Shown piece by piece: positions 11,803 to 27,639 of a DNA stretch of 64,000 bases. This stretch comes from a virus. Numbering within the stretch: position 1 is the first letter of the stretch; every line of letters begins with the position of its first letter. Where the stretch lies: IMG/VR virus record IMGVR_UViG_3300029432_000352. One strand, 5' to 3'. The notes under the pieces are model-generated. The model was not told where the DNA came from. It did not search any database and saw only the letters and a list, made by a program, of their open reading frames with translations. A program made the translations under genes and the position numbers.

Positions 11803-11855
11803 AATATAGTCCTTATTTTTTTACGTTTTTCTACTTTTTCATAAGCAAATGGCGG
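11803..11855 (-). promoter_or_regulatory. conserved two-block upstream element copy 1 (ccgccatttgcttatgaaaaagta ... aataggactatatt on coding strand)
   Basis: same ~53-bp element at 16293-16346 and 27066-27118, each 30-220 nt before an operon start. Confidence 0.4.
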
Positions 11856-11924
11856 TAAATTAATTTTTTGCACAAAAAAAACTGCCTTGCAAAATCTGCA
11901 AGACAGCTTTATAAATAAACAATA

Positions 11925-12794
11925 TTAAATTTTAGATAATATAAATGTTTCGGCTAAAATATCATTTTTCTTTTCTTCTGCATACAAATATAAGGATAAA
12001 ACTTTTTTTTCTTCATCTGACAAATATACTTTTGTACCGTTTTCATCCGTATAATATATTTGATTATAAGGAGTATAATCAATACAACATAGATAGTCTA
12101 AAGAACAATTTTTAGTTAACGCTTCAAAAAACATTCTGCTTAAAATGAAATTACAACTGTGTTGTGCTAACATCAATTGAAATGTTTCATATTTTCGACC
12201 GATTACTGAAGATGAAACCAACTCTACAAGAGATACACCTCTTAAATCTGCTAAATCAATAAAACGTAAATACATCAATTCTTTTAAATACTCATCATAA
12301 TCAGATAATCGAGCTCCAAGAGCTTCCGGCTTATGAATAAATGTGTACGTAAAATTTAATTTGGCTTTTTCTAAAAGGTTATCTATTTTATTTTTATTAT
12401 CTGAATTTAATTCCTTGTAAGCCTTAATAAATGTTCTTTCTTTTAACGGCAGTTCAATATCAAATTCTTTTCCCATAATTAATTTATTACAAGAACAATT
12501 AAATAATGGTACTAAATAATTTAATCCGATAGGAGATATTCTTATTATTTTGTCATTTGTCAACCATTGAGGATTCTCTTTAAGAGATACATATTTCCTA
12601 TAAGCATTATATATAGCTAATGAATTTATATTATTGTCCTGATTATCAAATTGATTAGAATTATCAAGGGTTAATTTATTATTAATTATTGCAAAATTAG
12701 CATTCAGCAAAGTTATGATTTTTTTACTAATATATTCTTCATTTTTATTTTTTGAATCCATATTCTGAAAATCTTCTTGATTAAATACATTCAT
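11925..12794 (-). CDS. hypothetical protein (289 aa)
   Basis: ORF only. Confidence 0.5.
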   Translation of the reverse strand: MNVFNQEDFQNMDSKNKNEEYISKKIITLLNANFAIINNKLTLDNSNQFDNQDNNINSLAIYNAYRKYVSLKENPQWLTNDKIIRISPIGLNYLVPLFNCSCNKLIMGKEFDIELPLKERTFIKAYKELNSDNKNKIDNLLEKAKLNFTYTFIHKPEALGARLSDYDEYLKELMYLRFIDLADLRGVSLVELVSSSVIGRKYETFQLMLAQHSCNFILSRMFFEALTKNCSLDYLCCIDYTPYNQIYYTDENGTKVYLSDEEKKVLSLYLYAEEKKNDILAETFILSKI

Positions 12795-12810
12795 TTCTTA
12801 CACCTCCCTT

Positions 12811-13713
12811 TTAATTTGCTAAGTGTTTTACAAATGTCTTAACAGCTTCTTTTGTATAAGCATTTGATAGCTTATATAAGTCAAAAATAGTCTCTATTGT
12901 TGGATTATTTGAATATATACAATATTCATTAAAACACAATAACCAGTGAATTGATACATCAAACAATTTTGAATATCTAAAATAATCTTCAAATTCTGCT
13001 ACATTGTTTGCGACAAAATCATTAGTAATACAAATTGTGTCGAGAGTATCATTAGTCAAAAGTTTATATTGGTACATTAAAGCAGACAATTCGTTATTTT
13101 TTTGCTTCTGTTTGAATAGGTTATATAATCTTTCGGAAGGAGAAGTATAATAGGTATATTCGTATGACTTCATTTCTGCTTCTAACTTATGCAAATTTTC
13201 ATTTATTGCATTTGTTTTATCTGACCATTTTTTCATTCTCTCTCTTAATTCTTCAAGTTTTTTGTCGTTTGCATTTAATTTTGATATAGAAGCATACTTG
13301 CCTTTTATTGATTGTAACCTCTCTACAAAACTACCTTGTCTAATCATTGCATTATCAATGGCAGTTTGTGTTTTTTGAACATCTGCTTGGCAAGTGTTTT
13401 TTATTACATCTTTTTCCCACCAAATAGGTGATATATTCAGTATAAACTCATATAAAATATTTATTTTAATTTCAGACAATGATTGTATTGAATTTATTAA
13501 ATCTTGATCTTCTTCACTTAATTTTATATATTTATCATATAATTCTTCACCAATAAAATCTTTGAAGTCTATTTTATTTTCAATTAAATATGGTTCAAGT
13601 TTATCATATAACTTAATACATTCTATTTTATCTGCCAATATTGATGATTTAATTACTTTTCTTTTTTTTATTTTGGGGATTTTCATTTTAATCCTCCTTT
13701 CTTGAAATTTCAA
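12811..13713 (-). CDS. hypothetical protein, coiled-coil rich (300 aa)
   Basis: ORF only. Confidence 0.5.
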   Translation of the reverse strand: MKFQERRIKMKIPKIKKRKVIKSSILADKIECIKLYDKLEPYLIENKIDFKDFIGEELYDKYIKLSEEDQDLINSIQSLSEIKINILYEFILNISPIWWEKDVIKNTCQADVQKTQTAIDNAMIRQGSFVERLQSIKGKYASISKLNANDKKLEELRERMKKWSDKTNAINENLHKLEAEMKSYEYTYYTSPSERLYNLFKQKQKNNELSALMYQYKLLTNDTLDTICITNDFVANNVAEFEDYFRYSKLFDVSIHWLLCFNEYCIYSNNPTIETIFDLYKLSNAYTKEAVKTFVKHLAN

Positions 13714-13731
13714 CCGTTATTCTACAATTTC

Positions 13732-13760
13732 ATTATACCATATTTTATATTTTGTGTCAA
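13732..13760 (-). promoter_or_regulatory. sigma-A promoter TTGACA-17-TGgTATAAT (minus strand)
   Basis: plus-strand attatacca 13732-13740 and tgtcaa 13755-13760. Confidence 0.45.
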
Positions 13761-13837
13761 TTATATCGGTCAAAATATTATTTTTTTATCCATAAAAAAA
13801 GCAGAAAGAAGTGAATTTCTCTCTGCTTGTGGAATAA

Positions 13838-14284
13838 TTATAATTGTTGATAAGCAACTATATATTCAGGATTATTTTGATTTATGTACAGTTTATATCG
13901 GAGATTCTCATAAAATACACCTTTTTTATTTCCATAATTGAATTTGTATGTCGCTCCGTTATCATCACAAAAAACAATATCCAATACTACATTTGTACCG
14001 TAACGTCTCTTAGATGTGGAGATGCACACTAATTCATATTCTTTAATCGTATCACTCACGTAATCATAATCCGTTTTAATAGCTGCTATAAGCATATAAA
14101 GACCAACTATTAAGCCTATTAATATGCCAACGCTTTTCAGGAGTATAGCTGCTATAACAGATATGGTTATAATTGATATACCAATCATTAATCGCATTGT
14201 TTTTAAGCGTGTTAATGCCGGAGGTAAATCAATTTCTTTCATTTGTTTAAATTTTTCCTTTAGTTTTGTTATATACTCGTTCAT
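13838..14284 (-). CDS. membrane protein (148 aa, 2 TM helices)
   Basis: hydrophobic segments ISIITISVIAAILL / ILIGLIVGLYMLIAAI. Confidence 0.5.
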   Translation of the reverse strand: MNEYITKLKEKFKQMKEIDLPPALTRLKTMRLMIGISIITISVIAAILLKSVGILIGLIVGLYMLIAAIKTDYDYVSDTIKEYELVCISTSKRRYGTNVVLDIVFCDDNGATYKFNYGNKKGVFYENLRYKLYINQNNPEYIVAYQQL

Positions 14285-14294
14285 ATTAAGCTCC

Positions 14295-15755
14295 TTATTC
14301 TTCTTTATCTTTTACCGGATACAACGATTTTACTATATTAACTTCTGTATTGTAGAAATTTTTCTTTTCGTCATTATCTGTATCTGCTGTTTCTAATAAT
14401 TCAACTTTAATTTCTGATTTATTTGATATTGCTTTCTTTATAGTGTCAACATAATCTTTTTCTAAAATAATTCTTATTTTAGCCGGAGTTACACTTGAAA
14501 CATATTCTTTATTACTTTTTATTTTATTTTCAATGTAATGAGATAAATCTGCTTCAGGGATTGATTCTAAAGGTGCAAATTCCGAATATAAGTCGGTATC
14601 GTTATCGGTTAATATATTTGCTATTACTGCATTACTGATTGTGTATTCTTCAGCAGTTGCTGTGCTTGTATCTTTTTTAATAGTAGTACCGTTCTGATTT
14701 TGAGACTCATTACTTTGATTTTTACCGCTTTGACTGTCAATTCTGAAGCTAATATTAACTTTTTGTCCTATTAACAGCTTTACTTTATCTAAATCTTCGG
14801 TTATCGGAATATCTACATAGCTAAAATTTGAATTTGACGAACCATATGGGTTTGCTTTTAATTCAAAATTTGATGAAACTGAATTTACACTCATATATTG
14901 TTCCTGTGGAATATATTCAGTTGCATATAAGCCTATAACATCTTTACACCTATCCCATTTGTATATATCGGTATTATTCATTGCAATCTGGTTATATGTT
15001 TTATTATCTATTTTCGCCTGAGCAAGCATATCTTCTGTTATCACATCACCGGGAACTACATCTTGCTTTAAAGTAATTACCGAAATTGCATCCGTATCGT
15101 TATTTACGGTAGGAGCTTTAAAATTGGCTATTAATGGCTTTACAGTAAATATACTTACTGCAATTATTCCAACTGCAATAATCACTGCAAACATACCTTT
15201 TTTGCTTTTAGATTTGGTATCTTTCGGCTTGTCTGAATCTTTGCTTGAAGATTTTGATTTTTCATCTCGGAAATTTTTGAGCTTATCTTTAAAAGTTTGT
15301 GCCTTATCTTTTACCGATAAGCTCTTGTCAGGTGCAGTCGGCTTATATTGTGGTGCAGGCTTAGGCGGTGTATTGGCTGATTTACGTATTTTGGCTCTTT
15401 CTCCGGTTAAATTACCGTCATCTTTCATAAAATAAACACAACCGTTAACTTTATCCACATAACCTCGTTTTATGGTATCACCTATTCTTATTTGTCGTAT
15501 AGGCAATTTTTTTATTTTATCAAGCATATTTTCGTTTTTATTGAGCTTTTGCATAGTTGCTTCAGGTTGAGGTTTTGTGTAAAATTTAGCATTTTGTTCT
15601 CCTGTAATCGGTTTAGTTGAAGCCTGTTTCTTTACCGGCTTTGATTTATCAACAGAAGTTTTAGGTGTATTTGATACATTTTTATGCTGTTCGCTTATGC
15701 TTCTGTCTGAATTGATTGTTTTTTTCTTCTTTGGCGGCATATTTACTTCTGACAT
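14295..15755 (-). CDS. lysine-rich membrane-anchored protein, possible SAF/CpaB-like domain (486 aa)
   Basis: K/P-rich N-terminal 190 aa, single TM, then VVPGDVITEDML segment; domain call tentative. Confidence 0.45.
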   Translation of the reverse strand: MSEVNMPPKKKKTINSDRSISEQHKNVSNTPKTSVDKSKPVKKQASTKPITGEQNAKFYTKPQPEATMQKLNKNENMLDKIKKLPIRQIRIGDTIKRGYVDKVNGCVYFMKDDGNLTGERAKIRKSANTPPKPAPQYKPTAPDKSLSVKDKAQTFKDKLKNFRDEKSKSSSKDSDKPKDTKSKSKKGMFAVIIAVGIIAVSIFTVKPLIANFKAPTVNNDTDAISVITLKQDVVPGDVITEDMLAQAKIDNKTYNQIAMNNTDIYKWDRCKDVIGLYATEYIPQEQYMSVNSVSSNFELKANPYGSSNSNFSYVDIPITEDLDKVKLLIGQKVNISFRIDSQSGKNQSNESQNQNGTTIKKDTSTATAEEYTISNAVIANILTDNDTDLYSEFAPLESIPEADLSHYIENKIKSNKEYVSSVTPAKIRIILEKDYVDTIKKAISNKSEIKVELLETADTDNDEKKNFYNTEVNIVKSLYPVKDKEE

Positions 15756-16261
15756 TTCTTTTCACCTTCCTTAACTTGAAATTTTGAACAAACATATCGG
15801 CAATACATTTTTCGCATTACAATATAATCATTTAAAATCAGAATGACTATTTCAATAATCGCATTTAAAAAATCTTTTGTATAATTACCGCTATATGCTT
15901 CAATTATTTGTTCTGTCAGTTCATTTGCTTTATCAAGTGATGCTGTTTTACTCTCGTATATTTTTTCAGTAAAGCGTTTTAACTCATCTAAATTTTCGTT
16001 ATTCTTTGATTGTTGATTATTGATTTCACGATAAAAATTTATAATCTTATATATAACTTGTTTAGGTGCTGTTTCTGCTGATTGAGATATTTCATTAATA
16101 AAATGTTCGGTTTTATCAACTGTTTTTAATTGTAATAACAAACTATTAATAAAATAACTTTGTATTTTTTTATTATTTGAACCTTTACCTAATTGATATT
16201 GTTGAAGTTCATTTGTAATTGTTACTCTTGATTTTTTCAAACCGTTTATAGTTAAATCCAA
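15743..16261 (-). CDS. hypothetical protein (172 aa, probably TTG start)
   Basis: ORF; AAAGGATGGTGA RBS. Confidence 0.4.
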   Translation of the reverse strand: MDLTINGLKKSRVTITNELQQYQLGKGSNNKKIQSYFINSLLLQLKTVDKTEHFINEISQSAETAPKQVIYKIINFYREINNQQSKNNENLDELKRFTEKIYESKTASLDKANELTEQIIEAYSGNYTKDFLNAIIEIVILILNDYIVMRKMYCRYVCSKFQVKEGEKKCQK

Positions 16262-16292
16262 TTAAATCACCATCCTTTAATCTACTTCCTAT

Positions 16293-16346
16293 TAATATAG
16301 TCCCTATTTTATTTCATTTTTCTACCTTTTCATAAGCAAATGGCGG
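16293..16346 (-). promoter_or_regulatory. conserved two-block upstream element copy 2
   Basis: see 11803..11855. Confidence 0.4.
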
Positions 16347-16529
16347 TTTTTTATGAATTTATTTGTTAAATCAAAAAACACACCCCAAATATTTGGGGTG
16401 TAATATGTCATTTTCACTTTTTTCTTTCAGAGGCTATCTCCTATTCAAGAATTGGCTAAGTGAGAACCAATAAGAGCCTCAATAACAAACTCCTTGAAAA
16501 AGCTGTTATTTCACAGGCTAATTACCTTA

Positions 16530-17114
16530 TTATGCACAATTTTTGAATATATCTATCATTTTCGATTTTAAACCGGCTTTTAATTTTGATAGGTATTTCA
16601 TACTGGTATCTAAAATTTCTACTATCTCTTCATCGGAATATCCATCTAAAATTAAAGATAACAATGTTTGCTCGGCAGCATTTGTTACTTTAATTAAATC
16701 TAACATAGAATCCACAACCATTGTATCATCTTTGGTGATTTTAAATTGATCGGGAACTATTTGCTTATTTCTTTGAACAGTATCGCTAAGTGATTCTACA
16801 TCAATAAATTGTGTTGGCATATTATCTTTTTTTACATTATGGGATTTTGCTGAAATCATGCCTTTGGAATATTCCGTCTGTAAATAAGTCCATACGTCCC
16901 ACTTTATCTTAACTGTAGCAAAAACGTAAAATTCGCCTTTTTTCTTGTTATATGATTGAGCTGCTTGGCACAGACTTACATTAGCTGTTGCAATACAATC
17001 TTCATATAAGTCTGCATCATTTCTTATTTTTGATTCTGTAAGCATTTTATAACAAATTTGCTTTGGCAAATTGATATTATCCTCTACCAATCTTAATTGT
17101 TCTTCAGTTAGCAT
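16530..17114 (-). CDS. sigma-70-family RNA polymerase sigma factor (194 aa)
   Basis: region-2-like segment and C-terminal region-4 HTH (LILDGYSDEEIVEILDTSMKYLSKLKAGLKSKM). Confidence 0.55.
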   Translation of the reverse strand: MLTEEQLRLVEDNINLPKQICYKMLTESKIRNDADLYEDCIATANVSLCQAAQSYNKKKGEFYVFATVKIKWDVWTYLQTEYSKGMISAKSHNVKKDNMPTQFIDVESLSDTVQRNKQIVPDQFKITKDDTMVVDSMLDLIKVTNAAEQTLLSLILDGYSDEEIVEILDTSMKYLSKLKAGLKSKMIDIFKNCA

Positions 17115-17162
17115 AGCATTTCCCCCTTAACAAAGGTGCTGAAAATCAGCACCTTTACTGAT

Positions 17163-19928: not shown

Positions 19929-20130
19929 TCTCCTTTTACTATTTTTTAAATTTAAACCTTTACTTTACAAAGTAAACGCAAGAAAAGAAGGTCAAAAAAT
20001 AGATATAGGAGTTAACCTACATCTTTTAACCTTATTTCACACAATAACTGCTACAATCATATGAATCACCTACTTTATATTAAGATGCCCCTGCGAAGAG
20101 AGGCATCTTATCTGCCGTTTGTTATATCTG

Positions 20131-21504
20131 TTAGCCAAATATCATTTGATATTCCTTATCAGTCATATTAGTTCCGAATTCGTTTTTATAGTCTATAAAT
20201 GATTTACCCGGCTGCCAATCGTACTCATCATCACCACTTTCGTAATGAAATGCGATTTTACCTTTCATATATTCTTGATCATAAAAACCGTCATGATATT
20301 CAGGAGCACCATTAACATAAACATCTATTGAGTAAGTGCTGCTTCTGTCTTGATTATCTACCTCTTTAGGCAAAACGGTAATACGAATTTTTTCATGACC
20401 TGTAGTATCAATCGTATATTCACCCGGTTCTGAGTAACGAACTTTATTCACAACGAATTGCCAACAGTCAGGCAAAAGGTCCGGAATAGTGAATGTTGCT
20501 TGCTTTGTTGCTTCATCAAACGTAAATGATTGTAGTACAACATCTTCAAGTTTTATTACTTTACTTGATAGTTTTGAATTATTTAAACAATGTTCTACAT
20601 CTACTACCCCTTCTTTAATACCATCAACATGGTTACTCATACCGAAAAGATCACTCATACTAACCTGATATTCTTTCGGTACATCATCACGGATTGGAGA
20701 AGTCCAAGTGATTTCTTTGCCCTGATACATATATGTTCTCTTACCTTTTGTTTCTCTCATGCTTTGATCTACCAATCTAACCAATACAGAGGATGCTTCA
20801 GCACGAGTCAGCTTTCTGTCACCGTGAAAACTGCCGTCCTCGTAACCGCTTAATACACCCTTGCCGTATGCTTGAAGAACATAACCCTTATATTCATCAG
20901 GAATATAGTCATAGTCTTTTAAAGCTGCTTTGTAGACATCAGTATTTTCAATTTTTTCTTCACCCAAATAATCCATAGTTCTTGCAATGAGTTTTGCCAT
21001 ATCAAAACGGCTCATCTCATCCCTCGGACCTCCAAAGTTGTAATCTTCAGTATCCATAATTGAATTATCATATTTGATTAACCCTTTATCAAGAGCGAAA
21101 TTCAAATATGGTTGTGCCCAATCGTCCCAAGCGTGATGCCAACGGTAATCAGCATCATATGGTTCTTTACCACTTAGAACTGCCGGTGTAAATTTATAAA
21201 TTTCATATCCATCTTCAACAGGTTCAATCTTATCTTCCAATGGATTTAAGATAAGTCCAACAACTGTTTTAGTGAATTCCTGATAAGTAATCACATTATC
21301 AGGGCGAAATGTTCCATCTTCGTAGCCACTGAAAGCTCCAAGTCCGGTGATTTTGTTAATATAGCTGTTAGCCCAATGGCTATCACTTACATCTGAATAT
21401 GCAGATGCGAATACAGGGATAGCTGATGAAGCAATAGTAGTTGTTGCCAATATGGCAGTTATGATTTGTTTTGTTCTCTTTAACATATTTAAAACCCCTT
21501 TCAA
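20131..21504 (-). CDS. SLH-domain cell-surface protein (457 aa)
   Basis: N-terminal signal peptide; SLH motifs DVSDSHWANSYINKI...GYEDGTFRP and GYEDGSFHGDRKLTRAEAS. Confidence 0.65.
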   Translation of the reverse strand: MKGVLNMLKRTKQIITAILATTTIASSAIPVFASAYSDVSDSHWANSYINKITGLGAFSGYEDGTFRPDNVITYQEFTKTVVGLILNPLEDKIEPVEDGYEIYKFTPAVLSGKEPYDADYRWHHAWDDWAQPYLNFALDKGLIKYDNSIMDTEDYNFGGPRDEMSRFDMAKLIARTMDYLGEEKIENTDVYKAALKDYDYIPDEYKGYVLQAYGKGVLSGYEDGSFHGDRKLTRAEASSVLVRLVDQSMRETKGKRTYMYQGKEITWTSPIRDDVPKEYQVSMSDLFGMSNHVDGIKEGVVDVEHCLNNSKLSSKVIKLEDVVLQSFTFDEATKQATFTIPDLLPDCWQFVVNKVRYSEPGEYTIDTTGHEKIRITVLPKEVDNQDRSSTYSIDVYVNGAPEYHDGFYDQEYMKGKIAFHYESGDDEYDWQPGKSFIDYKNEFGTNMTDKEYQMIFG

Positions 21505-21536
21505 AGTTAAATTATATTTCTTTTCTTTATACCTAT

Positions 21537-21565
21537 ATTATACCACATTTCACTCTCAAAGTCAA
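21537..21565 (-). promoter_or_regulatory. sigma-A promoter TTGACT-17-TGgTATAAT (minus strand)
   Basis: plus-strand attatacca 21537-21545, agtcaa 21560-21565. Confidence 0.45.
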
Positions 21566-21587
21566 TGCCAAATTGTAATATAACGTA

Positions 21588-22250
21588 TTAAATTTTATTT
21601 TTCGATATTTTTTCTACTATAACAGATAGCTCTGCCCTTGTGACATAATTAGTTCCTCTAAAAGTCCCATCTTCATAACCTGTTATAATTCCTTTTGCAT
21701 AAACTTGTGCAACATACGGTTTGCATAAGCCGCATACATTATTCCAATCTGATATTTTATTTGTATATTCGTCTGTATTATCTATATGTTCACTACCCAT
21801 ATACTCAATAGCTCTGGCAACTATTTTACTCATATCTTCTCTTGATACCAACATATTCTTGTATGCATATGCAGTATCATTGGTATTAAGTATTCCTGAA
21901 TTCAATGCAATATTCAAATATGGTTGTGACCAATTGTCCCAACGGTTTGTCCAATAATCACGATTAGGTATATCATCATTAAGATTATCAGATGGAATAT
22001 CGTTTAACTTATCTTTCATCAATGAGATAATCACTTTGGTTAATTCTTCGTGTGTTAATTGTTTTTCCGGCTTGAAAGAACCATCCTCATAACCTTCAAA
22101 GATGCCGTTTTCGGTTGCATTTTCAATATATGTATAAGCCCAATGGTTCTCAGGAACATCATTGTAGTCTTGTGCAAAAGCCGGTATTGAAAAAGATATT
22201 GCTGCGGCGGTAAGTAATGGTATTAATTTATGTTTGATCATTATATTCAC
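21588..22250 (-). CDS. SLH-domain protein (220 aa)
   Basis: signal peptide plus two SLH-like motifs (YNDVPENHWAYTYIE...GYEDGSFKP; GYEDGTFRGTNYVTRAELS). Confidence 0.65.
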   Translation of the reverse strand: MNIMIKHKLIPLLTAAAISFSIPAFAQDYNDVPENHWAYTYIENATENGIFEGYEDGSFKPEKQLTHEELTKVIISLMKDKLNDIPSDNLNDDIPNRDYWTNRWDNWSQPYLNIALNSGILNTNDTAYAYKNMLVSREDMSKIVARAIEYMGSEHIDNTDEYTNKISDWNNVCGLCKPYVAQVYAKGIITGYEDGTFRGTNYVTRAELSVIVEKISKNKI

Positions 22251-22302
22251 CCCTATTATGATATTTGTTTACATTTACATTATACAGTATTTACGAACAA
22301 AC

Positions 22303-23457
22303 TCAACCATTTTTTCGTATTGATTTTCGATAATAGTCAAATGCTTGATCAAATCGCATAGTTCTTCTACATACTTTATTGCATTCAGCATCAGGAAAAG
22401 TTCTAAACCAACCGTCAAACGGACAATAGTATGTTGTTATCGTATCATTTGATTTTTCTATTGAATACAAATGTTGCTGACAATTATTGAAACTAAAATA
22501 TCCGATTGTATAATTGTTATTTTCTTTGAATTCGCCATTGTTATATTTTTGCTCTCGAATTTTAATTTTTGCTTGTTTTTGAGCATATGTATATTGTGGC
22601 AATCTCTCTATAACTTTTGATATTTCTTCTTGTTCATCTTTTGTTAAGTAAATTCCACTGTGAGTGTACTTATTTATGTTTGAGAAAGATAAGTTAGCCC
22701 AATTTTCGTATAATCCACCGTTGTAGAAATTATTTGGAAATACAAGAGAATCATTATGAATTATCGTATTACAAAATGAATTATCGTATAGTTTCTTTAC
22801 AATAAAATCAGAATTATCAAGATGATTATATAACAATGTTCTTATATAGTTCATATGTATGCTATTCTGATAAAAAGGATTTTCCATTTCGTACACTTCA
22901 TTGCCTGCCTGAACAGATAATGTTTTATCACGAATGTTCCCGGTTATCGTTCCTACCCTATTTTTTACTTCACAAACATGGATTCCAAATTTTGAAACAA
23001 TCAACATATCAATTTCAGCAAAATTATCATTACCGAGTGGAATTATCACACTTGTATACACTTTTGCATTTTCATCTAATTTTTTAAATCTTTTTGATAA
23101 TTTCTTAAATACAAGATATTCACCGTATACACCTTTATCAAGCAATTCTGATAAATCAGCTTTTGTTTGCTGATACCATTCGGATTTTTCATAACAGAAA
23201 GTTAAATGTAATTCTTTAAATAGTTTAAATTTTGAATATATCATTATTGAAAGAATTATTATTATCCAAACTAAAACAGATATTATGTATTCTAAACATA
23301 AGACAACATTAGTTGACAAATTCATATGCTCTATTATAAAACAAATTAGTGAACTTATAGCTCCTGATAAAAAATAAATCAAACAGCCAAACCCACATCC
23401 ATTTCTACAATTTTCGTTATTATTCACTATTTGTTTTGCAATTTTAAATTTGGACAT
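22303..23457 (-). CDS. NERD-domain membrane protein with C-terminal Cys-rich zinc-ribbon (384 aa)
   Basis: 2 N-terminal TM helices; FAEIDMLIVSKFGIHVCEVKN...NPFYQNSIH resembles NERD; C-terminal CPFDGW...ECNKVC. Confidence 0.5.
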   Translation of the reverse strand: MSKFKIAKQIVNNNENCRNGCGFGCLIYFLSGAISSLICFIIEHMNLSTNVVLCLEYIISVLVWIIIILSIMIYSKFKLFKELHLTFCYEKSEWYQQTKADLSELLDKGVYGEYLVFKKLSKRFKKLDENAKVYTSVIIPLGNDNFAEIDMLIVSKFGIHVCEVKNRVGTITGNIRDKTLSVQAGNEVYEMENPFYQNSIHMNYIRTLLYNHLDNSDFIVKKLYDNSFCNTIIHNDSLVFPNNFYNGGLYENWANLSFSNINKYTHSGIYLTKDEQEEISKVIERLPQYTYAQKQAKIKIREQKYNNGEFKENNNYTIGYFSFNNCQQHLYSIEKSNDTITTYYCPFDGWFRTFPDAECNKVCRRTMRFDQAFDYYRKSIRKNG

Positions 23458-23521
23458 TTTTATACCTCTTTCTCATTTTTTTCTATATTATACCACAAAA
23501 TCTCTAAAACGTCAAAATGTG

Positions 23522-23559
23522 ATAAAAAAAGAGCTGCTTAGTTTTTTCCAAGCAGCTCA
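23522..23559 (-). terminator. rho-independent terminator (9-bp perfect stem gagctgctt/aagcagctc + U-run)
   Basis: seen directly; downstream of 23569..23937. Confidence 0.6.
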
Positions 23560-23568
23560 AAAATTTTT

Positions 23569-23937
23569 TTACATATAAATATCTACTATGTCTGACAATT
23601 TATCAATAATTGTTTTAATCACCTCTGTATGTGTATCATATACTGATGAAATTAATATAGCATTTTTATTATTCGGCTTTATATGTATATCCGGGAATAA
23701 TTCCATTAATTCATTAATTGCATCCATAGTTGACGTAAAAACCAACAAATCTATACATCCAAAGAATTCTTTACTTTTAAATAACCCGACTCTAATATAC
23801 TTAAAAATATCAGCAGCATTGTTCTCTGCTAAAAATTTTTTTGTATACATCGGCATAGTATTTAGGTTGATTTTTGTTACATAATTATTTGTACTTTCTG
23901 AAATTACTAATTCAATATTATCCAATCTCGTCTCCAC
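23569..23937 (-). CDS. hypothetical protein (122 aa; start uncertain, GTG as listed)
   Basis: ORF; strong RBS AAAGGAGGG lies upstream in front of a 3-codon ORF. Confidence 0.4.
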   Translation of the reverse strand: METRLDNIELVISESTNNYVTKINLNTMPMYTKKFLAENNAADIFKYIRVGLFKSKEFFGCIDLLVFTSTMDAINELMELFPDIHIKPNNKNAILISSVYDTHTEVIKTIIDKLSDIVDIYM

Positions 23938-24363
23938 CCTTCTTTTTTATCAGTTATACTTGAAAATCAAAAATAAATTATTAAATTTGTTTATATGCTC
24001 ATAGTATCCCTCCTTTACTGTATTTGTTAAATAAATAACAAAAAAACAGGAAAATACAGTTGTTCTACTGAATTCTCCTGTTCATTGAACTTCATATGGC
24101 TAAACTGATTGTGTGATTTTTGAAAATTCCCTACTATTATATATAATAAAGAATATTTACCAAATTATTTCGGCAGTTTCTACCATTTATATTGACAATT
24201 CATCTCACCGTTTTGCTAACACGTTAATAGCTAAAATGAGTATACTTGTCAATTTTTTAAAATATTTAATTGTTTCAGATTTCATTAAAATTTATATTAC
24301 TATAATAATATATATTTTTACAGTACAAAAGCCAATAAAGATTCTATGAAAATAATATTACAA

Positions 24364-26091
24364 TTATATTGCAGCTTGTTCTAAATTAGTTGCATTTAAC
24401 CACTTTAATTCATTATCTTTTTTTGTTTTTAATGTTTCTACTACTGCATTTGCTAAATCCTTTTTGTTTTTTAGTGCATTAAGAATATATTCATCAATTG
24501 TATCTTTGGCAAGCAAATGAATATAAGTACATTTATTGGTTTGACCGATACGATGTATTCTTGCCTTTGCTTGAATATAATCTGCATAATTAAAAGTAAG
24601 ACTGTAAAAAATCATCGTTGAAGCGGCGGTAAGTGTTATACCCATACTTGTTGCTTGAATTTGACCAACAAAGACTTTACAATCAGGATTAGTTTGAAAT
24701 TTTATTCTTTCAGCATCTCTGTCTTTTGTTTTACCGGTTATAACTGCTGTTTCAATCTTTTTCTTTTTTAACATTTTACATATAGCATCAATTTCGGCTG
24801 TAAATTTTGCCATAATAACAACTTTTTGATTTTGGGAGATTAGTGTTTCAACCAATTCTTCCAATGTATTAAGTTTGCTGTTTGAAACATTTATATACTT
24901 GGCAGCTTTATCTCCTTTGATAAAACCACCGGTTATTTGCTGTAATCGAAGAAATTTGGTTAAAATGCTTTTAATTGAAACGGTATTGCTTTTTGAAAGT
25001 TTTAATTCACCTTCCAATACCGATTCGTATGCTTTTATTGCATCTTTTTCTAATTGGATTGGAATTGCAACGTCTGTTTCTTCCGGAAGGTCTAAAGCAT
25101 CATCCTTTGTTACTCTGTATGCAACTGAATGTGCTTTATCTATTAACTCTTTCATATTAAGCCAAGCAGATGTTCTGTAATGAGTACCACACCACTCTTG
25201 TACAGAATACTTATCACGAAACTTATCATAATCATATCCGAACACTTCAGGACTAATCACTCTGTATTGTCCAAATAAATCAAGAGGATTATTTTGAACT
25301 GGCGTGCCGGTCAAAATCATTCTGTAATCTGCAACAGCAGCTATATGTGATGCTGCTATACTTGCTTTTCCGTCAGGTGATTTAATTTTTGTGCTTTCAT
25401 CACAGATTAAAAAGTTCGGATTCCATTCAAGCAATTCATCTTCAAGTCTATACATACTTTCATAATTAACGATAGCTACCTTTAAACAATCTTTATAATT
25501 TGAAAGTTCATCTAATTTCTTTAATTTTTCAGCTTTGTTTTTTCCATCTATAACAACGCTCTTAACAGCAAAATCAGCGAATTTATTTAGTTCCTCTGTC
25601 CATACCCCTAAAATTGACTTAGGAGCTAAAATAAGAGCTTTTTCTACTAAGCCGTTTAGATAAGCTCTGCCTAATACAGCAATAGAAGTGAGAGTTTTTC
25701 CACATCCCATTTCAAATTCAAGTCCGTATCCCGGTGATTTTTTTTCTGAATCAGGGAAAATCCCCATCATATCACAAGCTAAAGCATAACCATCGGTTTG
25801 ATATGAATATGGTTTAGCTTTTAACGGAAGCGGTTGTTTAGGTTCAGGAACAAAAATCGCAGTTTTTTCTATATATTTATCGAAAAAGTTGGGAAATGTA
25901 CAGCCTAATATAGAAAGTTCGTTGAGAACATACTTATTATATGGTAATCTCCAAATTTTTTCTTTTCCATCCCATATGGCATTTCCTATTTCTTTTATAC
26001 AAAATCTAAACATATAGCTGTCATATACCTTAAATTGTCTTTGTACTTTATCAACAGTTGCGTACATAAACATCATCCTTTCACAATGCAA
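24364..26091 (-). CDS. SNF2-family DEAD/H helicase (575 aa)
   Basis: motif I EMGCGKTLT, motif II ICDESTKIK, C-terminal helicase domain. Confidence 0.75.
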   Translation of the reverse strand: MHCERMMFMYATVDKVQRQFKVYDSYMFRFCIKEIGNAIWDGKEKIWRLPYNKYVLNELSILGCTFPNFFDKYIEKTAIFVPEPKQPLPLKAKPYSYQTDGYALACDMMGIFPDSEKKSPGYGLEFEMGCGKTLTSIAVLGRAYLNGLVEKALILAPKSILGVWTEELNKFADFAVKSVVIDGKNKAEKLKKLDELSNYKDCLKVAIVNYESMYRLEDELLEWNPNFLICDESTKIKSPDGKASIAASHIAAVADYRMILTGTPVQNNPLDLFGQYRVISPEVFGYDYDKFRDKYSVQEWCGTHYRTSAWLNMKELIDKAHSVAYRVTKDDALDLPEETDVAIPIQLEKDAIKAYESVLEGELKLSKSNTVSIKSILTKFLRLQQITGGFIKGDKAAKYINVSNSKLNTLEELVETLISQNQKVVIMAKFTAEIDAICKMLKKKKIETAVITGKTKDRDAERIKFQTNPDCKVFVGQIQATSMGITLTAASTMIFYSLTFNYADYIQAKARIHRIGQTNKCTYIHLLAKDTIDEYILNALKNKKDLANAVVETLKTKKDNELKWLNATNLEQAAI

Positions 26092-26345
26092 ATATCACAA
26101 TATGTATTTAATTCACTCAATATTATCCATACATATATTATACCACAAATCAGCATTTTTTTCAAGATTAAATTGTATATTTACCGTTTAAAATTTGATT
26201 TTTTTGAATAGCAAATCTCTGTAATGTCAAAAAAGGATAATGAAAAAAAACGCATATAGTCAATACGGTTTATACTATACAAAAGCAGTGTTTTTGTTGT
26301 TTTGGATTTTCCATAATATAGGTAAAATAGTGGTGAGTTTTTTCA

Positions 26346-26407
26346 TTGTCAAAATAATTCAACGGCAGATGATAGATTGTCAAAATGAATTTAGATATTG
26401 TCAAAAT
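26346..26407. repeat. three direct repeats of ATTGTCAAAAT at 30- and 21-bp phasing (iteron-like)
   Basis: 26346-26356, 26376-26386, 26397-26407. Confidence 0.45.
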
Positions 26408-26562
26408 TGATGTCGTACAATCCCAAAATTGGGCTTAATAATAAAGATTTTATAACTAAGCTTTGCTTCTAAAAAAGTTCCTCGCCTGCCAAGGAAGAAT
26501 TGTGGCGGTAGCCATAAAAAAATTCTAAGTTTTAAAAATATATTAAATAAACGTGTATTATA

Positions 26563-26665
26563 TATACGTGTACGTGTGTACGTGTGCGTGTGTACGTGTG
26601 TACGTGTACGTGTGTGTGCATGTGTACGTGTGTACGTGTGCGTGTGTATGTGTACGTGTATGAGC
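26563..26665. repeat. ~100-bp alternating purine-pyrimidine microsatellite (TACGTGTG-type units, GT/AC rich)
   Basis: seen directly; ORFs called across it (HTHTYTRT...) are artifacts. Confidence 0.8.
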
Positions 26666-26696
26666 AATCTGTCTTTGCCTTTTCACCGGTTACTTT

Positions 26697-27035
26697 TCAC
26701 AACGACTTATCAAATCTTCTGTTTCGGCAAATATTGTTCCCCCCTTTGTTCCAAATGCTGAATTGTTGTTTTGAATTTCCACTTATTGTTGAATCAAAGC
26801 CCTTGTAACGACTCATGTGATTATTTTTTGCTTGAATAACTCGACAGTCAAACATTTTCATTGCAACAGAAGCCGTTGTGTTGAGGACCACAACTTTATC
26901 CTTGGCAGTCAAACCGGTTGCATTTGTATTATCAGCTAAATATCCGTCATCAGCTATTTGTATTATCCGGTTCGATTTTAAGCAGTTATTTGTTTGATAA
27001 TCGGCTTGTTTACAGGCTTTTTGCAAATTATTCAC
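26697..27035 (-). CDS. hypothetical protein (112 aa; GTG/TTG start)
   Basis: ORF; weak start signals. Confidence 0.4.
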   Translation of the reverse strand: MNNLQKACKQADYQTNNCLKSNRIIQIADDGYLADNTNATGLTAKDKVVVLNTTASVAMKMFDCRVIQAKNNHMSRYKGFDSTISGNSKQQFSIWNKGGNNICRNRRFDKSL

Positions 27036-27065
27036 CTCACTGAAAGATTGTTAAATTTTTATTTA

Positions 27066-27118
27066 CCGCCATTTGCTTATGAAAAAGTAAAATTTTTGGT
27101 CTAAATAGGGACTATATT
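27066..27118 (+). promoter_or_regulatory. conserved two-block upstream element copy 3 (plus orientation, upstream of plus-strand HTH operon)
   Basis: see 11803..11855. Confidence 0.4.
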
Positions 27119-27238: not shown

Positions 27239-27273
27239 TTTGACATTGATAAAAATGTGAAATTATGTTATAA
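27239..27273 (+). promoter_or_regulatory. extended -10 promoter TGtTATAAT (27265-27273) with distant TTGACA
   Basis: -35 to -10 spacing is 23 nt so -35 assignment is doubtful. Confidence 0.3.
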
Positions 27274-27339
27274 TGCAAGTACAGTTAAACTTTCAAACAA
27301 CAAAAAACAAGATTAAGGGATTATAAGGAGTGAGTAAAA

Positions 27340-27639
27340 ATGATTAAAGAGGCATTAGATGTATGGATGTGGATGTTTAATATCGGATTATCCGGTAATG
27401 AAGTGCTTATATATGCGTATATATACGATTGTTCGTCAAGGGGCAGAGTATTTAAACATAGCTATCAAGAAATCGCTGACAGTATCGGTTCAAGTGAACA
27501 AACTGTACGAAGAGCCATTGACAAAATGCTTAAACTCGGTGCTATTAAAACCTGTATTAATCCTAAAGACGGACAACGAGTTTTTGTTCATTCCGCTGAT
27601 TATATCAAAGACGTTAAGAAAACAGATTATACACTGTAA
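27340..27639 (+). CDS. HTH protein, phage replisome-organizer/RepA-N-like domain (99 aa)
   Basis: IYAYIYDCS...SYQEIADSIGSSEQTVRRAIDKMLKLGAIK motif. Confidence 0.5.
   Translation: MIKEALDVWMWMFNIGLSGNEVLIYAYIYDCSSRGRVFKHSYQEIADSIGSSEQTVRRAIDKMLKLGAIKTCINPKDGQRVFVHSADYIKDVKKTDYTL

What the first reader, a model, noticed from the sequence alone, without database searches (positions are those of the whole stretch)
11803..27118. Conserved two-block ~53-bp element at three operon starts, next to an element-encoded sigma factor
The sequence CCGCCATTTGCTTATGAAAA[AG]GTA - 15-19 nt A-rich - AATAGGGACTATATT (coding-strand orientation) occurs at 11803-11855, 16293-16346 and 27066-27118. In each case it lies 30-220 nt upstream of the first gene of an operon: the 428-aa protein/TcpE/VirB4 operon, the 172-aa/486-aa operon, and the plus-strand HTH replication operon. 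It is always in the same orientation relative to the gene. It does not fit sigma-A spacing. Copy 2 lies immediately downstream of the element's own sigma-70-family sigma factor gene (16530..17114). A plausible reading is that these are the target promoters of that sigma factor. Alternatively it is a binding site for a dedicated activator. Either way it would couple transfer and replication genes.
Basis: partly seen in the sequence, partly recalled or inferred. Interest (0 to 1): 0.6.

Follow-up and report, generated by a model that had tools for sequence, protein, structure and literature searches.

The report
Conjugation-gene promoters tied to element sigma
A 54-bp two-block sequence repeated in front of the DNA-transfer and replication operons of a human-gut Clostridium mobile element is most likely a dedicated promoter. 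It is probably switched on by the element's own sigma factor, which would give sigma-like genes of clostridial conjugative elements a first candidate regulon.

Summary
Three 54-nt copies (11803-11856-, 16294-16347-, 27065-27118+) share invariant blocks at a fixed spacing. Chance expectation is zero. A fourth, decayed copy lies at 46307-46362.

Each intact copy sits where a promoter should. Two follow an intrinsic terminator. All three end in TATATT, 32-221 nt before a start codon, and none has a sigma-A -35 hexamer.

In gut metagenomes the same element occurs 69 times in at least 8 gene contexts. The spacing is always the same. The blocks are almost free of polymorphism (2% of columns), against 35% in the spacer.

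ORF 16530-17114 is a genuine but divergent sigma-70-family protein. Distant relatives (23-39% identical sigma) keep the order sigma, 486-aa membrane protein, 148-aa protein, S1-domain protein, VirB4. They carry a related site (CGCC-WTTTGC, about 36 nt, TATAWT) after the sigma gene and, in three of the seven elements, before the S1 gene. Relatives without the sigma module have canonical sigma-A promoters there instead.

The sigma-regulon reading is therefore the best supported (about 0.6). One thing does not fit. The family-wide conserved core lies near -55, too far upstream for a normal sigma region 4 contact, so a second factor may be involved. Nothing here is experimental.

The parts
11803..11856 (-). 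Motif copy 1: ACCGCCATTTGCTTATGAAAAAGTAGAAAAACGTAAAAAAATAAGGACTATATT. It lies 36 nt upstream of the ATG of the 428-aa S1-domain protein, the first gene of the S1 / 275-aa / VirB4 operon.
   Evidence: terminator 11910-11878 just upstream
16294..16347 (-). Motif copy 2, 32 nt upstream of the TTG start of the 172-aa ORF. This is the first gene of the 172-aa / 486-aa / 148-aa operon.
   Evidence: terminator 16402-16379 just upstream
27065..27118 (+). Motif copy 3, in the divergent intergenic region. It lies 221 nt upstream of the 99-aa HTH gene, which is followed by the 348-aa DnaD-like replication initiator.
46307..46362 (-). Degenerate fourth copy (GTGCCTATTTACTTATGAAAATGTAGAAA ... AAAATAGGCATTATATATAT). 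The spacer is 1 nt shorter and no ORF follows closely. It is probably a decayed paralogue of copy 2.
16530..17114 (-). The 194-aa divergent sigma-70-family protein. It has sigma-2 and sigma-4 domains joined by a roughly 54-aa low-confidence linker, and no region 3.
   Evidence: Pfam Sigma70_r2 E 8e-4. TIGR02937 E 3.7e-8 over residues 9-186. AF2 model. The top 50 Foldseek PDB hits are all sigma factors. 18 of 31 family members hit Sigma70_r2. The family profile hits SigH 3mzy at 6e-24. A 98%-identity cluster mate is named 'RNA polymerase factor sigma-70 [uncultured Clostridium sp.]' by NCBI.
13838..16261 (-). Operon driven by copy 2. It holds a 172-aa protein, a 486-aa protein and a 148-aa protein with two TM segments. 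The 486-aa protein has a conserved ~50-aa cytoplasmic domain, one TM segment and a CpaB/SAF-like extracytoplasmic domain. The 486-aa and 148-aa genes are present or absent together with the sigma gene across relatives.
7091..11766 (-). Operon driven by copy 1: a 428-aa S1-domain protein, a 275-aa protein with a weak PrgI-like match, and the 844-aa VirB4/TraG P-loop ATPase. It continues into the DUF5697, DUF6100 and 397-aa genes (4102-7007).
27240..27274 (+). Strong sigma-A-type promoter between copy 3 and the HTH/replication genes: TTGATA, 17 nt, TATAAT with a TG extension, overlapping TTGACA, 18 nt, TATGTT.
27340..28718 (+). The 99-aa HTH_36 protein and the 348-aa HTH_36/DnaD-like replication initiator. 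These are the genes downstream of copy 3.
11878..11910 (-). Intrinsic-terminator-like hairpin with a T-run. It ends the upstream 289-aa gene, 21 nt before copy 1.
16379..16402 (-). Intrinsic-terminator-like hairpin with a T-run, 31 nt before copy 2. It closes the sigma / drum RNA transcript.
16412..16519 (-). drum RNA (Rfam RF02958), between the sigma stop codon and the terminator. It is not found in the distant relatives, so it is probably not part of the conserved sigma-promoter system.

Best explanation
The 54-bp element is the promoter of the element's transfer regulon. It is probably used by host core RNA polymerase carrying the element-encoded sigma factor (16530-17114).

Proposed working (inferred):
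- The 3' block (AAATARGGACTATATT) is an extended -10 region. Transcription would start about 6-8 nt after it, in the conserved WRTRRR.
- The 3' end of the 5' block (AAAARGTARAA, about -44 to -33) occupies the -35 position. It is specific to this element.
- The 5' end of that block (ACCGCCATTTGC, about -60 to -48) is an additional upstream element conserved across the whole family. It is probably contacted by something other than sigma region 4.

Once sigma is made, it would switch on three units together:
- the 172/486/148-aa membrane-protein operon;
- the S1/VirB4 T4SS operon;
- an extra transcript reading into the replication genes.
In other copies of the element it would also drive a signal peptidase gene and secreted or surface proteins.

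Shown here: the repeat, its fixed geometry, its promoter-like placement, the purifying selection on the blocks, the sigma fold, and the co-inheritance of the sigma module with this promoter type.
Inferred: the transcription start, the dependence on sigma, and which protein touches which block.
For: (1) Placement. Copies 1 and 2 directly follow terminator hairpins. All copies end 32-36 nt (minimum) before start codons, which leaves room for a 25-30-nt leader with a ribosome-binding site.

(2) Not a sigma-A promoter. There is no TTGACA-like hexamer 16-18 nt upstream of TATATT; the best is TAGAAA, 4 of 6, at 19 nt. The bases before the hexamer are AC instead of TG. An invariant ATARGGAC lies immediately upstream of the hexamer. 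The sites are absent from the listed part of the sigma-70 scan, which shows the 60 strongest of 119 candidates.

(3) Metagenomes. There are 69 genuine instances in human-gut contigs, all with identical spacing. They fall into at least 8 distinct gene contexts that share only the two blocks, while 8-9 spacer positions differ.

(4) Population polymorphism in six orthologous groups. Block positions not forced by the search pattern are polymorphic in 3 of 144 columns. The spacer is polymorphic in 19 of 54 columns and the upstream flank in 32 of 180. Fisher P values are 1e-9 and 2.5e-6.

(5) The ORF is a sigma-70-family protein.

(6) Synteny. Sigma homologues at 23-39% identity sit at the head of the same cluster in L076, L077, L078, L081, L082 and L085.

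(7) Related two-block sites. All seven sigma-bearing elements have a related site just after the sigma gene. The window, L076 and L077 also have one before the S1 gene. The form is CGCC-WTTTGC, about 36 nt, TATAWT, RTGARG. A position matrix built only from the other elements ranks the window's three copies 1st, 2nd and 4th of 127,882 positions. It ranks the L078 site 1st and the L077 sites 2nd and 3rd.

(8) Phyletic pattern. The sigma, 486-aa and 148-aa genes are present or absent together. Of the four relatives without them, L080, L086 and L087 have canonical extended -10 sigma-A promoters before the S1/VirB4 operon, and L083 has no CGCC-type site there.

(9) Precedent. SigN of pBS32 is a plasmid-encoded sigma whose regulon is confined to the plasmid, with the promoter TTTACG...CCAGATATAAT (PMC6751061).
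Against: - There is no experimental datum of any kind: no mapped transcription start and no test of sigma dependence.
- The family-wide conserved core (CGCC-ATTTGC) is centred near -55 if TATATT is the -10. A sigma region 4 domain held on the beta-flap cannot reach it. The -35 position itself is not conserved between elements.
- The -10 hexamers in all relatives (TATATT, TATAAT, AATAAT, CATTAT) look like sigma-A -10 elements. Sigma-A plus an upstream activator is therefore not excluded.
- No copy of the motif lies upstream of the sigma gene. In the relatives sigma is driven by a consensus sigma-A promoter, so the autoregulation typical of ECF sigmas and of SigN is absent.
- The co-inherited module contains two other proteins. 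Either could be the factor that matters.
- The orthologous copies are 92-100% identical, so the phylogenetic depth comes from only about 7 elements. The sites before the S1 gene in L081, L082 and L085 are doubtful. The leave-one-out matrix fails to recover the L081, L082 and L085 sites, and its noise ceiling (10-15 bits) is close to the true-site scores of 13-18 bits.
Confidence: 0.6

Rival explanations
1. These are sigma-A promoters with a good -10 and no -35. They would be switched on by a dedicated activator bound to the upstream block (about -60 to -33), as in SetCD, AcaCD, Mor/C or Ogr-type transfer and late promoters. The neighbouring sigma gene would be irrelevant, or would act elsewhere. 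The activator could be a module protein, for example the cytoplasmic domain of the 486-aa membrane protein acting in a ToxR-like way, or a host protein.
For: - The -10 hexamers are sigma-A-like in every element.
- The conserved upstream block is 14-28 nt long and centred at -55 to -46. That is the size and position of an activator site, not of a 5-7-bp -35 element.
- The far-upstream core stays the same while the sigma-4 recognition helices differ greatly between elements.
- The 486-aa protein has a conserved cytoplasmic domain, one TM segment and a sensor-like outer domain. It is co-inherited with the sites.
Against: - No DNA-binding domain was found in any module protein other than sigma.
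- The cytoplasmic domain of the 486-aa protein gave no fold match; the best Foldseek E-value was 0.23.
- Conservation of ATARGGAC directly upstream of the hexamer, where sigma-A would prefer TRTG, is not explained.
- A sigma-2/sigma-4 protein that is always encoded at the head of the cluster, and is lost together with the sites, is then left without a role.
Confidence: 0.22
2. The conserved blocks are operators of an element-encoded repressor that keeps weak constitutive promoters of the transfer genes silent, in the manner of ImmR, Rco or KorA/B.
For: - Identical sequences lie in front of several operons of one element.
- The block overlaps the -35 and -10 regions, where repressors usually bind.
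- The element carries an HTH protein downstream of copy 3 and an XRE-like C-terminal sequence in the 300-aa protein.
Against: - There is no dyad symmetry or direct repeat of the kind dimeric repressors use.
- Without the blocks, no functional sigma-A -35 remains to be repressed.
- The HTH, 300-aa and 112-aa proteins are not conserved in the relatives that keep the upstream core.
- Relatives lacking the module carry strong sigma-A promoters, not unrepressed versions of this one.
Confidence: 0.08
3. The repeat is not a promoter. It would be a dispersed DNA repeat such as a recombination or att-like site, a miniature mobile repeat, or part of a transcribed RNA element.
For: - One variant locus at the window's left end carries a motif copy next to a site-specific recombination junction.
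- A decayed copy at 46307-46362 has no adjacent gene.
Against: - No Rfam family covers the copies.
- There are no terminal inverted repeats or target duplications.
- The copies always point at a gene start, lie after terminators, and have a variable interior with invariant -35 and -10 style blocks.
- Syntenic conservation holds across elements at 23-39% sigma identity.
Confidence: 0.03

Closest known systems
SigN (ZpdN) of Bacillus subtilis plasmid pBS32 and its plasmid-restricted regulon (PMC6751061)
   Same: - It is a weakly sigma-like protein encoded on the mobile element itself.
- Several promoters on the same element share one two-block motif.
- The -10 is TATAAT-like with a conserved extension (CCAGATATAAT there, GGGACTATATT here).
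- The regulon appears confined to the element.
   Different: - SigN promoters have a normal -35 (TTTACG) at normal spacing.
- SigN activates its own gene and is induced through LexA.
- Here a conserved block extends to about -60 and no autoregulatory copy exists.
- Here the targets are T4SS, replication and surface-protein genes rather than a cell-death programme.
- No sequence similarity to plasmid-borne proteins was found.
Sigma-like proteins annotated on clostridial conjugative transposons (CTn1/CTn5-like, Tn1549/Tn916 family; PMC3158075, PMC7438776), and Orf7/Orf8 of Tn916 (PMC5812530)
   Same: - They are sigma-like genes carried by Firmicutes conjugative elements.
- They are suspected to transcribe genes inside the element.
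- Tn916 Orf7/Orf8 activate a promoter that leads into the transfer genes.
   Different: - For those proteins no promoter motif or regulon has been defined in the papers read here.
- Several have only a region-4 HTH.
- Tn916 works by read-through from one promoter after excision, not by a repeated promoter in front of each operon.
- Homology of the present sigma to them was not tested.
ECF (group 4) sigma / anti-sigma modules
   Same: - The sigma has only two domains (sigma-2 and sigma-4) and is about 190 aa.
- The next conserved gene encodes a single-pass membrane protein with a cytoplasmic N-terminal domain and a large outer domain.
- The sigma controls that gene.
   Different: - There is no autoregulated sigma promoter.
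- There is no AAC / CGT type promoter.
- The membrane protein has no recognisable anti-sigma domain and may simply be a T4SS or CpaB-like structural part.
- By profile, the nearest solved relative is SigH-like.
Activator boxes of transfer regulons (SetCD of SXT/R391, PMC4344509; AcaCD of IncA/C; phage Mu Mor/C and P2 Ogr late promoters, the last three from my own knowledge)
   Same: - One conserved box sits upstream of -35 in front of many operons of a mobile element.
- The promoters lack a good -35.
- The element's transfer genes fire together.
   Different: Those systems use sigma-70 plus a dedicated non-sigma activator. Here the only regulator-like protein tied to the sites is itself a sigma-family protein.

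Membership tests
Sigma-70 family (ORF 16530-17114) | Region 2 (sigma-2) domain | tested here: met
   Pfam Sigma70_r2 E 8e-4, below cut-off. TIGR02937 E 3.7e-8 over residues 9-186, below cut-off. 18 of 31 homologues hit Sigma70_r2, best 5e-18. The family profile hits PDB SigH 3mzy at 6e-24 and many other sigma factors. The top 50 Foldseek hits are all sigma factors.
Sigma-70 family (ORF 16530-17114) | Region 4 helix-turn-helix | tested here: met
   10 of 31 homologues hit Sigma70_r4_2 and 12 of 31 hit GerE. The C-terminal helices 146-193 are modelled at pLDDT 65-81. The TIGR02937 and SigH alignments run to the C-terminus.
Sigma-70 family (ORF 16530-17114) | Binds core RNA polymerase and directs initiation at specific promoters | not testable with these tools
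   This needs in vitro transcription or genetics.
ECF (group 4) sigma with cognate anti-sigma | Sigma gene preceded by its own target promoter (autoregulation) | tested here: not met
   No motif copy lies upstream of the sigma gene or of the 921-aa gene in the window. In the relatives, sigma has a consensus sigma-A promoter and a long leader.
ECF (group 4) sigma with cognate anti-sigma | Adjacent anti-sigma factor | tested here: inconclusive
   The 486-aa protein has the right topology and is co-inherited with sigma. No family hit beyond a weak CpaB match was found. The N-terminal domain model has no significant structural neighbour.
ECF (group 4) sigma with cognate anti-sigma | Promoter of the type -35 'AAC', 16-17 nt, -10 'CGT' | tested here: not met
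   The blocks read RGTARAA, then GGGACTATATT.
Housekeeping sigma-A promoter | -10 hexamer close to TATAAT | tested here: met
   TATATT in all contexts.
Housekeeping sigma-A promoter | -35 hexamer close to TTGACA, 16-18 nt upstream, or a TG extension | tested here: not met
   The best candidate is TAGAAA (4 of 6) at 19 nt. The bases before the hexamer are AC. The sites are not among the 60 strongest of 119 candidates that the scan lists.
Mobile-element sigma with an element-restricted regulon (SigN type) | Several promoters on the element share one motif, and the sigma is encoded on the same element | tested here: met
   Three intact copies lie in the window. At least 8 contexts occur in other copies of the element. 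Contexts 4 and 6 abut the window's left end.
Mobile-element sigma with an element-restricted regulon (SigN type) | Transcripts start at the motif only when the sigma is present | not testable with these tools
   The only support is indirect. The promoter type switches with presence or absence of the sigma module in 11 related loci.
Activator-dependent transfer promoters (SetCD / AcaCD type) | Conserved box upstream of a promoter that lacks a -35 | tested here: met
   The invariant block spans about -60 to -33. Its core, CGCC-WTTTGC, is conserved across the family.
Activator-dependent transfer promoters (SetCD / AcaCD type) | A dedicated non-sigma activator encoded by the element | tested here: inconclusive
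   None was recognised among the proteins conserved with the sites.
drum RNA (Rfam RF02958), 16412-16519(-) | Score above Rfam's gathering threshold, with the motif followed by a terminator | tested here: met
   47.4 bits against a threshold of 43, full-length match 1-112. The terminator 16402-16379 follows. This fits the description in PMC5737381.

The most novel reading that the evidence does not exclude
The promoter may be tripartite. It would need the element's sigma for a -10 and an element-specific -35. It would also need a second module-encoded or host factor bound at a family-wide CGCC-ATTTGC core near -55. One candidate is the conserved cytoplasmic domain of the co-inherited 486-aa single-pass membrane protein. 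That would tie T4SS gene transcription to a membrane or cell-surface signal, such as contact with a recipient. This would be a new way of wiring a sigma-70-family factor, and a new control logic for Gram-positive conjugation.
Probability: 0.15. Interest if true: 0.8.

Novelty: new variant of a known kind. Interest (0 to 1): 0.55.

Why it matters
Sigma-like genes have been noted on clostridial conjugative elements since at least 2006. The papers read here still ask whether they recruit RNA polymerase to promoters inside the element (PMC3158075, PMC7438776). A 2019 review of Gram-positive conjugation control lists no element-encoded sigma (PMC6540685).

This finding offers a concrete and easily testable regulon for one family that is widespread in the human gut. 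The sigma cluster was seen on at least 1000 contigs, the longest 3.35 Mb. A precise promoter sequence is available, in front of the T4SS, replication, signal-peptidase and surface-protein genes. There is also a natural control group of related elements that lack the sigma module and use sigma-A promoters.

The unusual upstream core near -55 could expose a second regulator. If the reading is right, the motif can be used to predict when such elements transfer, and to annotate their transfer regulons in metagenomes.

Tried and rejected
- Near-identity searches of 7-30 kb against the plasmid and phage collections found nothing. tblastn of the sigma against plasmids also found nothing.
- VirB4 against one genome per species found no relative.
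- The motif scan of the same collection gave only 2 chance hits with the wrong spacing. The viral contigs gave none. The host species could therefore not be named from these searches. One database entry calls it 'uncultured Clostridium sp.'.
- phmmer of the sigma alone against PDB sequences found nothing. The family profile was needed.
- The first distant sigma homologue (L002, 2.7 kb) showed no motif, because the contig is too short.
- Reading TTGCTT inside block 1 as a -35 was rejected. The position 17 nt downstream of it falls in the variable spacer.
- A resemblance to sigma-H, sigma-B or the T4 MotA box was rejected as non-conserved or wrongly spaced. This was done by eye from my own knowledge of the consensus sequences.
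- The -10-like match at 12884-12898 lies inside a coding region and has no upstream block. It was rejected as chance.
- The fixed-register position matrix did not recover the sites of L081, L082 and L085, where the spacing differs by 1-3 nt.
The single-sequence model of its cytoplasmic domain (pLDDT 73) had no significant structural neighbour.
- drum RNA was not found in the relatives.
- The supplement describing the gene associations of drum RNA is not held.

Full report
**1. The observation**

The 20-mer CCGCCATTTGCTTATGAAAA occurs exactly three times in the window, at 11836-11855 (-), 16327-16346 (-) and 27066-27085 (+). None of 100 dinucleotide-preserving shuffles gave a match, even with three mismatches allowed. 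The second block, AATAGGGACTATATT, is exact at 16294-16308 (-) and 27104-27118 (+) and has one mismatch at 11803-11817 (-).

Aligned with their flanks, the three copies need no gap inside the element. Copy 2 begins at 16294. With one more invariant A at the 5' end, the unit is 54 nt. Similarity stops within a few bases upstream. Downstream only a loose WRTRRR follows.

A whole-window scan with relaxed matching found one further, decayed copy at 46307-46362 (-). Both blocks are recognisable and in the right order, but the spacer is 1 nt shorter and no gene lies nearby.

**2. The surroundings**

The window has 30% G+C and carries the parts of a conjugative element.
- A VirB4/TraG-type ATPase lies at 7091-9625.
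- Upstream of it are a 275-aa protein with a weak PrgI-like match and a 428-aa S1-domain protein.
- Downstream are DUF5697 and DUF6100 proteins.
- On the other strand are a 99-aa HTH protein and a 348-aa HTH_36/DnaD-like replication initiator.
- The window also holds SLH surface proteins, a SNF2 helicase, and a long run of small genes with methylases, ImpB/UmuC and a pentapeptide protein.

Copies 1 and 2 lie 21 and 31 nt after terminator-like hairpins (11910-11878 and 16402-16379). They end 36 and 32 nt before the start codons of the 428-aa and 172-aa genes. That is just enough room for a short leader with its ribosome-binding site, if transcription starts a few bases after TATATT.

Copy 3 lies in a divergent intergenic region, 221 nt before the HTH gene. 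A strong sigma-A-type promoter (27240-27274) sits between them.

Inside the cluster, the 300-aa / 289-aa gene pair has its own perfect sigma-A promoter: TTGACA, 17 nt, TATAAT with a TG extension, at 13760-13732. The host's consensus promoter is therefore used in this element where wanted, and the repeated unit is something different. It has no TTGACA-like hexamer at 16-18 nt. The bases before the hexamer are AC instead of TG, and an invariant ATARGGAC sits directly upstream of TATATT.

**3. The neighbouring ORF is a sigma factor**

On its own, ORF 16530-17114 matches only weakly:
- Pfam Sigma70_r2, E 8e-4;
- TIGR02937, E 3.7e-8 over its whole length, below the family cut-off;
- no PDB sequence.

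Four further lines settle the matter.
- An exhaustive HMMER search found a family of about 170-200-aa proteins. 324 cluster representatives scored E below 1e-3.
- 18 of 31 aligned members hit Sigma70_r2 (best 5e-18), and 10-12 hit region 4 or GerE models.
- The family profile matches solved sigma factors. SigH 3mzy scores 6e-24, followed by SigB, SigF, SigA and FliA.
- An AlphaFold model is confident in residues 1-84 and 140-190 and low in the 85-138 linker. All of its top 50 Foldseek neighbours in the PDB are sigma factors.

A cluster mate at 98% identity is already named 'RNA polymerase factor sigma-70 [uncultured Clostridium sp.]' by NCBI. It was seen on at least 1000 contigs, the longest 3.35 Mb. 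The element is therefore common, and in at least one case chromosomal.

**4. The motif in other copies of the element**

A two-block pattern (13 + 8 fixed bases, gap 26-36) found 71 loci in human-gut metagenome contigs. 69 are genuine, and every one has the same spacing. The two exceptions, and the two hits in the genome collection, have other spacings and other flanks, so they are chance matches.

The genuine instances fall into at least 8 contexts:
- the three seen in the window;
- a copy about 290 nt before a signal peptidase I gene (Peptidase_S26, E 3e-37);
- a copy 148 nt before a 373-aa secreted repeat protein;
- a truncated variant of the signal-peptidase context on 230-310-kb contigs;
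- copies before a 151-aa secreted protein and before a 136-aa protein.

Across the contexts the consensus is ACCGCCATTTGCTTATGAAAAgGTAgAAa, then 8-9 variable positions, then aAAATA.GGACTATATTaaT. About 28 conserved positions were not imposed by the search pattern.

The orthologous copies are 92-100% identical overall, so conservation between them says little on its own. Where they do vary is informative. In six orthologous groups (68 sequences), the polymorphic columns are as follows.

| Region | Polymorphic columns | Share |
|---|---|---|
| Unforced block positions | 3 of 144 | 2% |
| Spacer | 19 of 54 | 35% |
| Upstream flank | 32 of 180 | 18% |
| Downstream flank | 12 of 240 | 5% |

Fisher P is 1e-9 for blocks against spacer and 2.5e-6 for blocks against upstream flank. 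The downstream flank does not differ significantly from the blocks (P = 0.18). The blocks are under purifying selection. The spacer's length is constrained, but its sequence is not.

**5. Distant relatives**

Word-indexed searches and look-ups of the contigs that encode the sigma homologues gave three loci: L076, L077 and L078. Their sigmas are 36%, 27% and 23% identical to the window's. All three keep the same gene order: sigma, a 486-aa-like protein, a 148-aa-like protein, the S1-domain protein, a 275-aa-like protein, VirB4, DUF5697.

VirB4 homologues are numerous. The few with a source name come from Clostridiales, Peptococcus and Eisenbergiella. They led to three more loci with a sigma (L081, L082, L085) and four without one (L080, L083/84, L086, L087).

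A tblastn table shows that the sigma, 486-aa and 148-aa genes are present or absent together. The S1 / 275-aa / VirB4 / DUF5697 core is present in all loci.

In each of the seven sigma-bearing elements, the intergenic region right after the sigma gene carries a related site. The window, L076 and L077 carry a second one before the S1 gene. The sites usually follow a terminator directly. Examples:
- ACCGCCATTTAGTGCGCAAAA...CATTATGTGAG (L076)
- TTCGCTCTTTGCATTT...TATAATATGAGG and TTCGCCCTGTGCATTT...TATAATGTGAAGG (L077)
- TTCGCCAATTGCATAC...TATATTATGAAAGG (L078)
- TTCGCACATTTGCAAAT...GGATATATTATTCATAG (L085)

In the window, L077 and L078, the distance from CGC to the hexamer is the same, to the base. 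It differs by 1-3 nt in L076, L082 and L085.

A position matrix built only from the other elements ranks the window's three copies 1st, 2nd and 4th of 127,882 positions. It ranks the L078 site 1st of 21,178, the two L077 sites 2nd and 3rd of 25,934, and one L076 site 2nd. It does not recover the L081, L082 or L085 sites. Its noise ceiling of 10-15 bits is close to the true-site scores of 13-18 bits, so this test is supportive rather than decisive.

In three of the four sigma-less relatives, the S1/VirB4 operon is preceded by a textbook sigma-A promoter:
- L080: TTGACA, 17 nt, TATTAT with a TG extension;
- L086: TTGACG...TGgTAGTAT;
- L087: TTGAAC...TGgTATGAT.

L083 has neither promoter type clearly.

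**6. Mechanism**

Taken together, the unit is a promoter. The promoter type travels with a three-gene module whose only nucleic-acid-binding member, as far as can be recognised, is a sigma-70-family protein. The simplest reading is that holoenzyme carrying this sigma starts transcription a few bases after GACTATATT.

Within the window's element the geometry GTAGAA, N17, GACTAT (or GTAGAA, N15, GGGACT) resembles ECF or group-3 promoters. This comparison is an inference made by eye.

Two observations complicate the picture. First, between elements the -35 position is not conserved at all. That would be expected if the very different sigma-4 recognition helices read different sequences. Second, the far-upstream core CGCC-WTTTGC, centred near -55, is conserved across all elements. 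That is too far from the -10 for a sigma-4 domain held on the beta-flap (established structural knowledge).

I therefore consider a second contact likely. It could be a module protein or a host factor. The 486-aa protein has a conserved ~50-aa cytoplasmic domain (IKxLPLRxI..GD..GYYDE.NL.VYL.DENG.LTG), one TM segment and a large CpaB/SAF-like outer domain. That is the topology of anti-sigma factors and of ToxR-like membrane regulators. Its domain model has no significant structural neighbour, however, so its role is open.

The hexamers are sigma-A-like everywhere. 'Sigma-A plus an activator' therefore remains a real rival, at about 0.2.

No motif copy precedes the sigma gene. In the window, sigma follows the 921-aa surface-protein gene after a 48-nt gap containing a hairpin. 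In four relatives (L077, L081, L082, L085) it has a consensus sigma-A promoter, then a box (A/G)TATGAAGT, then one or two terminator hairpins. Sigma synthesis thus looks to be controlled by attenuation or antitermination rather than by autoregulation.

**7. Comparison with known systems**

The nearest characterised analogue is SigN of pBS32. It is a weakly sigma-like plasmid protein with a plasmid-confined regulon and TTTACG...CCAGATATAAT promoters (PMC6751061). Unlike the present case, SigN has normal -35 spacing, activates its own gene, and has a different biological output.

Sigma-like genes on clostridial conjugative transposons are well known as annotations. The papers read explicitly leave their targets open (PMC3158075; PMC7438776).

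Tn916 Orf7/Orf8 activate one promoter, and transfer genes are then reached by read-through (PMC5812530). A review of Gram-positive conjugation control mentions no element-encoded sigma (PMC6540685).

The finding is thus a new variant of a known kind. It is a mobile-element sigma with a self-contained regulon, here with a defined promoter in front of T4SS operons and an unusual upstream core.

**8. Verdict**

- The best explanation is a sigma-module-dependent promoter family, at about 0.6.
- Interest is 0.55. The result is not astonishing to a specialist, but it makes an old open question directly testable in a very common gut element. There is perhaps a 15% chance of a new tripartite promoter logic.

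Noticed in passing
window 34568-34750, 41298-41471, 43156-43319, 45765-45908, 48700-48917, 51130-51311, 53405-53617, 55486-55673, 62752-62966; also 23990-24165 (all read on the - strand): About ten intergenic cassettes share one architecture in front of small genes: methylases, ImpB/UmuC, a pentapeptide protein, and others. The order is a sigma-A promoter (TTGACTTCA...TG.TATAAT), then a box (A/G)TATGAAGT about 10 nt after the -10, then a small hairpin, TTAATATAGTTTTT, a long hairpin with a U-run (terminator-like), a third hairpin, and the ribosome-binding site. The promoter lies before the terminator, so this looks like an attenuation or antitermination leader. The same promoter, ATATGAAGT box and terminator leader precedes the sigma gene in relatives L077, L081, L082 and L085. 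That suggests a cascade: leader system, then sigma, then T4SS promoters.
   Followed up: partly
window 16412-16519 (-): A drum RNA (Rfam RF02958; 47.4 bits against a threshold of 43) lies between the sigma stop codon and the terminator, just upstream of motif copy 2. Its function is unknown according to PMC5737381. It is absent from the eight related loci scanned.
   Followed up: partly
window 946-1622; compare L053 3440-3860 and L032 60-560: This is a recombination junction. The window carries fragments of a tyrosine recombinase gene (..HCLRHTFAT..) followed by a 70-nt inverted repeat (1477-1546 / 1553-1622). At the same junction other contigs carry a motif copy, a leader and an ORF starting VKNII. 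That ORF continues either as a full signal peptidase I or as a truncated variant. An intact integrase gene lies beyond the repeat. It looks like a site-specific switch or shufflon-like rearrangement that places or removes a sigma-type promoter.
   Followed up: partly
window about 6880-7090; L076 10922-11016, L077 9945-10115, L078 6927-7081, L080 12725-13068, L081 12524-12686, L085 12491-12623: The gap between VirB4 and the DUF5697 gene holds dense arrays of short ACGT-containing repeats in most related elements examined (TACGTA, AAAACGT, AAACGCCTGTAAAAC, AATACGC). The repeat sequence is element-specific. L086 and L087 have no such gap. This is a candidate iteron or oriT-like region, or a regulator-binding array.
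   Followed up: no
window 28777-30126: An IS605-family OrfB/TnpB gene (370 aa, 28909-30021) is inserted just after the replication initiator gene. The segment is missing precisely in L031, L041 and L056.
   Followed up: partly
window 14284/14285: Several metagenomic variants (L005, L011, L050, L059, L066) carry about 1.6 kb of extra DNA exactly between the 486-aa and 148-aa genes. Its content was not examined.
   Followed up: no
window 26554-26667: An imperfect GT/AC-rich tandem repeat (GTGTACGTGT units) lies inside the nominal 88-aa ORF 26401-26667, close to the replication region. That ORF is probably not a gene.
   Followed up: no
window 13732-13760 (-) and 11925-13713 (-): The 300-aa / 289-aa gene pair has its own perfect sigma-A promoter and is flanked by terminators. 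It occurs only in the window's element and in L076, so it looks like an inserted cassette inside the T4SS cluster. The 300-aa protein ends in an XRE-like '..LFDVSIHWLL' sequence.
   Followed up: no
L077 1877-1936 (-): The best-scoring matrix hit in L077 is a third CGCC-type site (CGCCTTTTGCGTG...GGTATTTAGTG). It points away from the sigma gene, towards the divergent small genes, and may be a further regulon member.
   Followed up: no
window 54819-55178: A 15-nt tandem repeat of about 24 units encodes the pentapeptide-repeat part of the DUF7666 protein (54522-55544).
   Followed up: no
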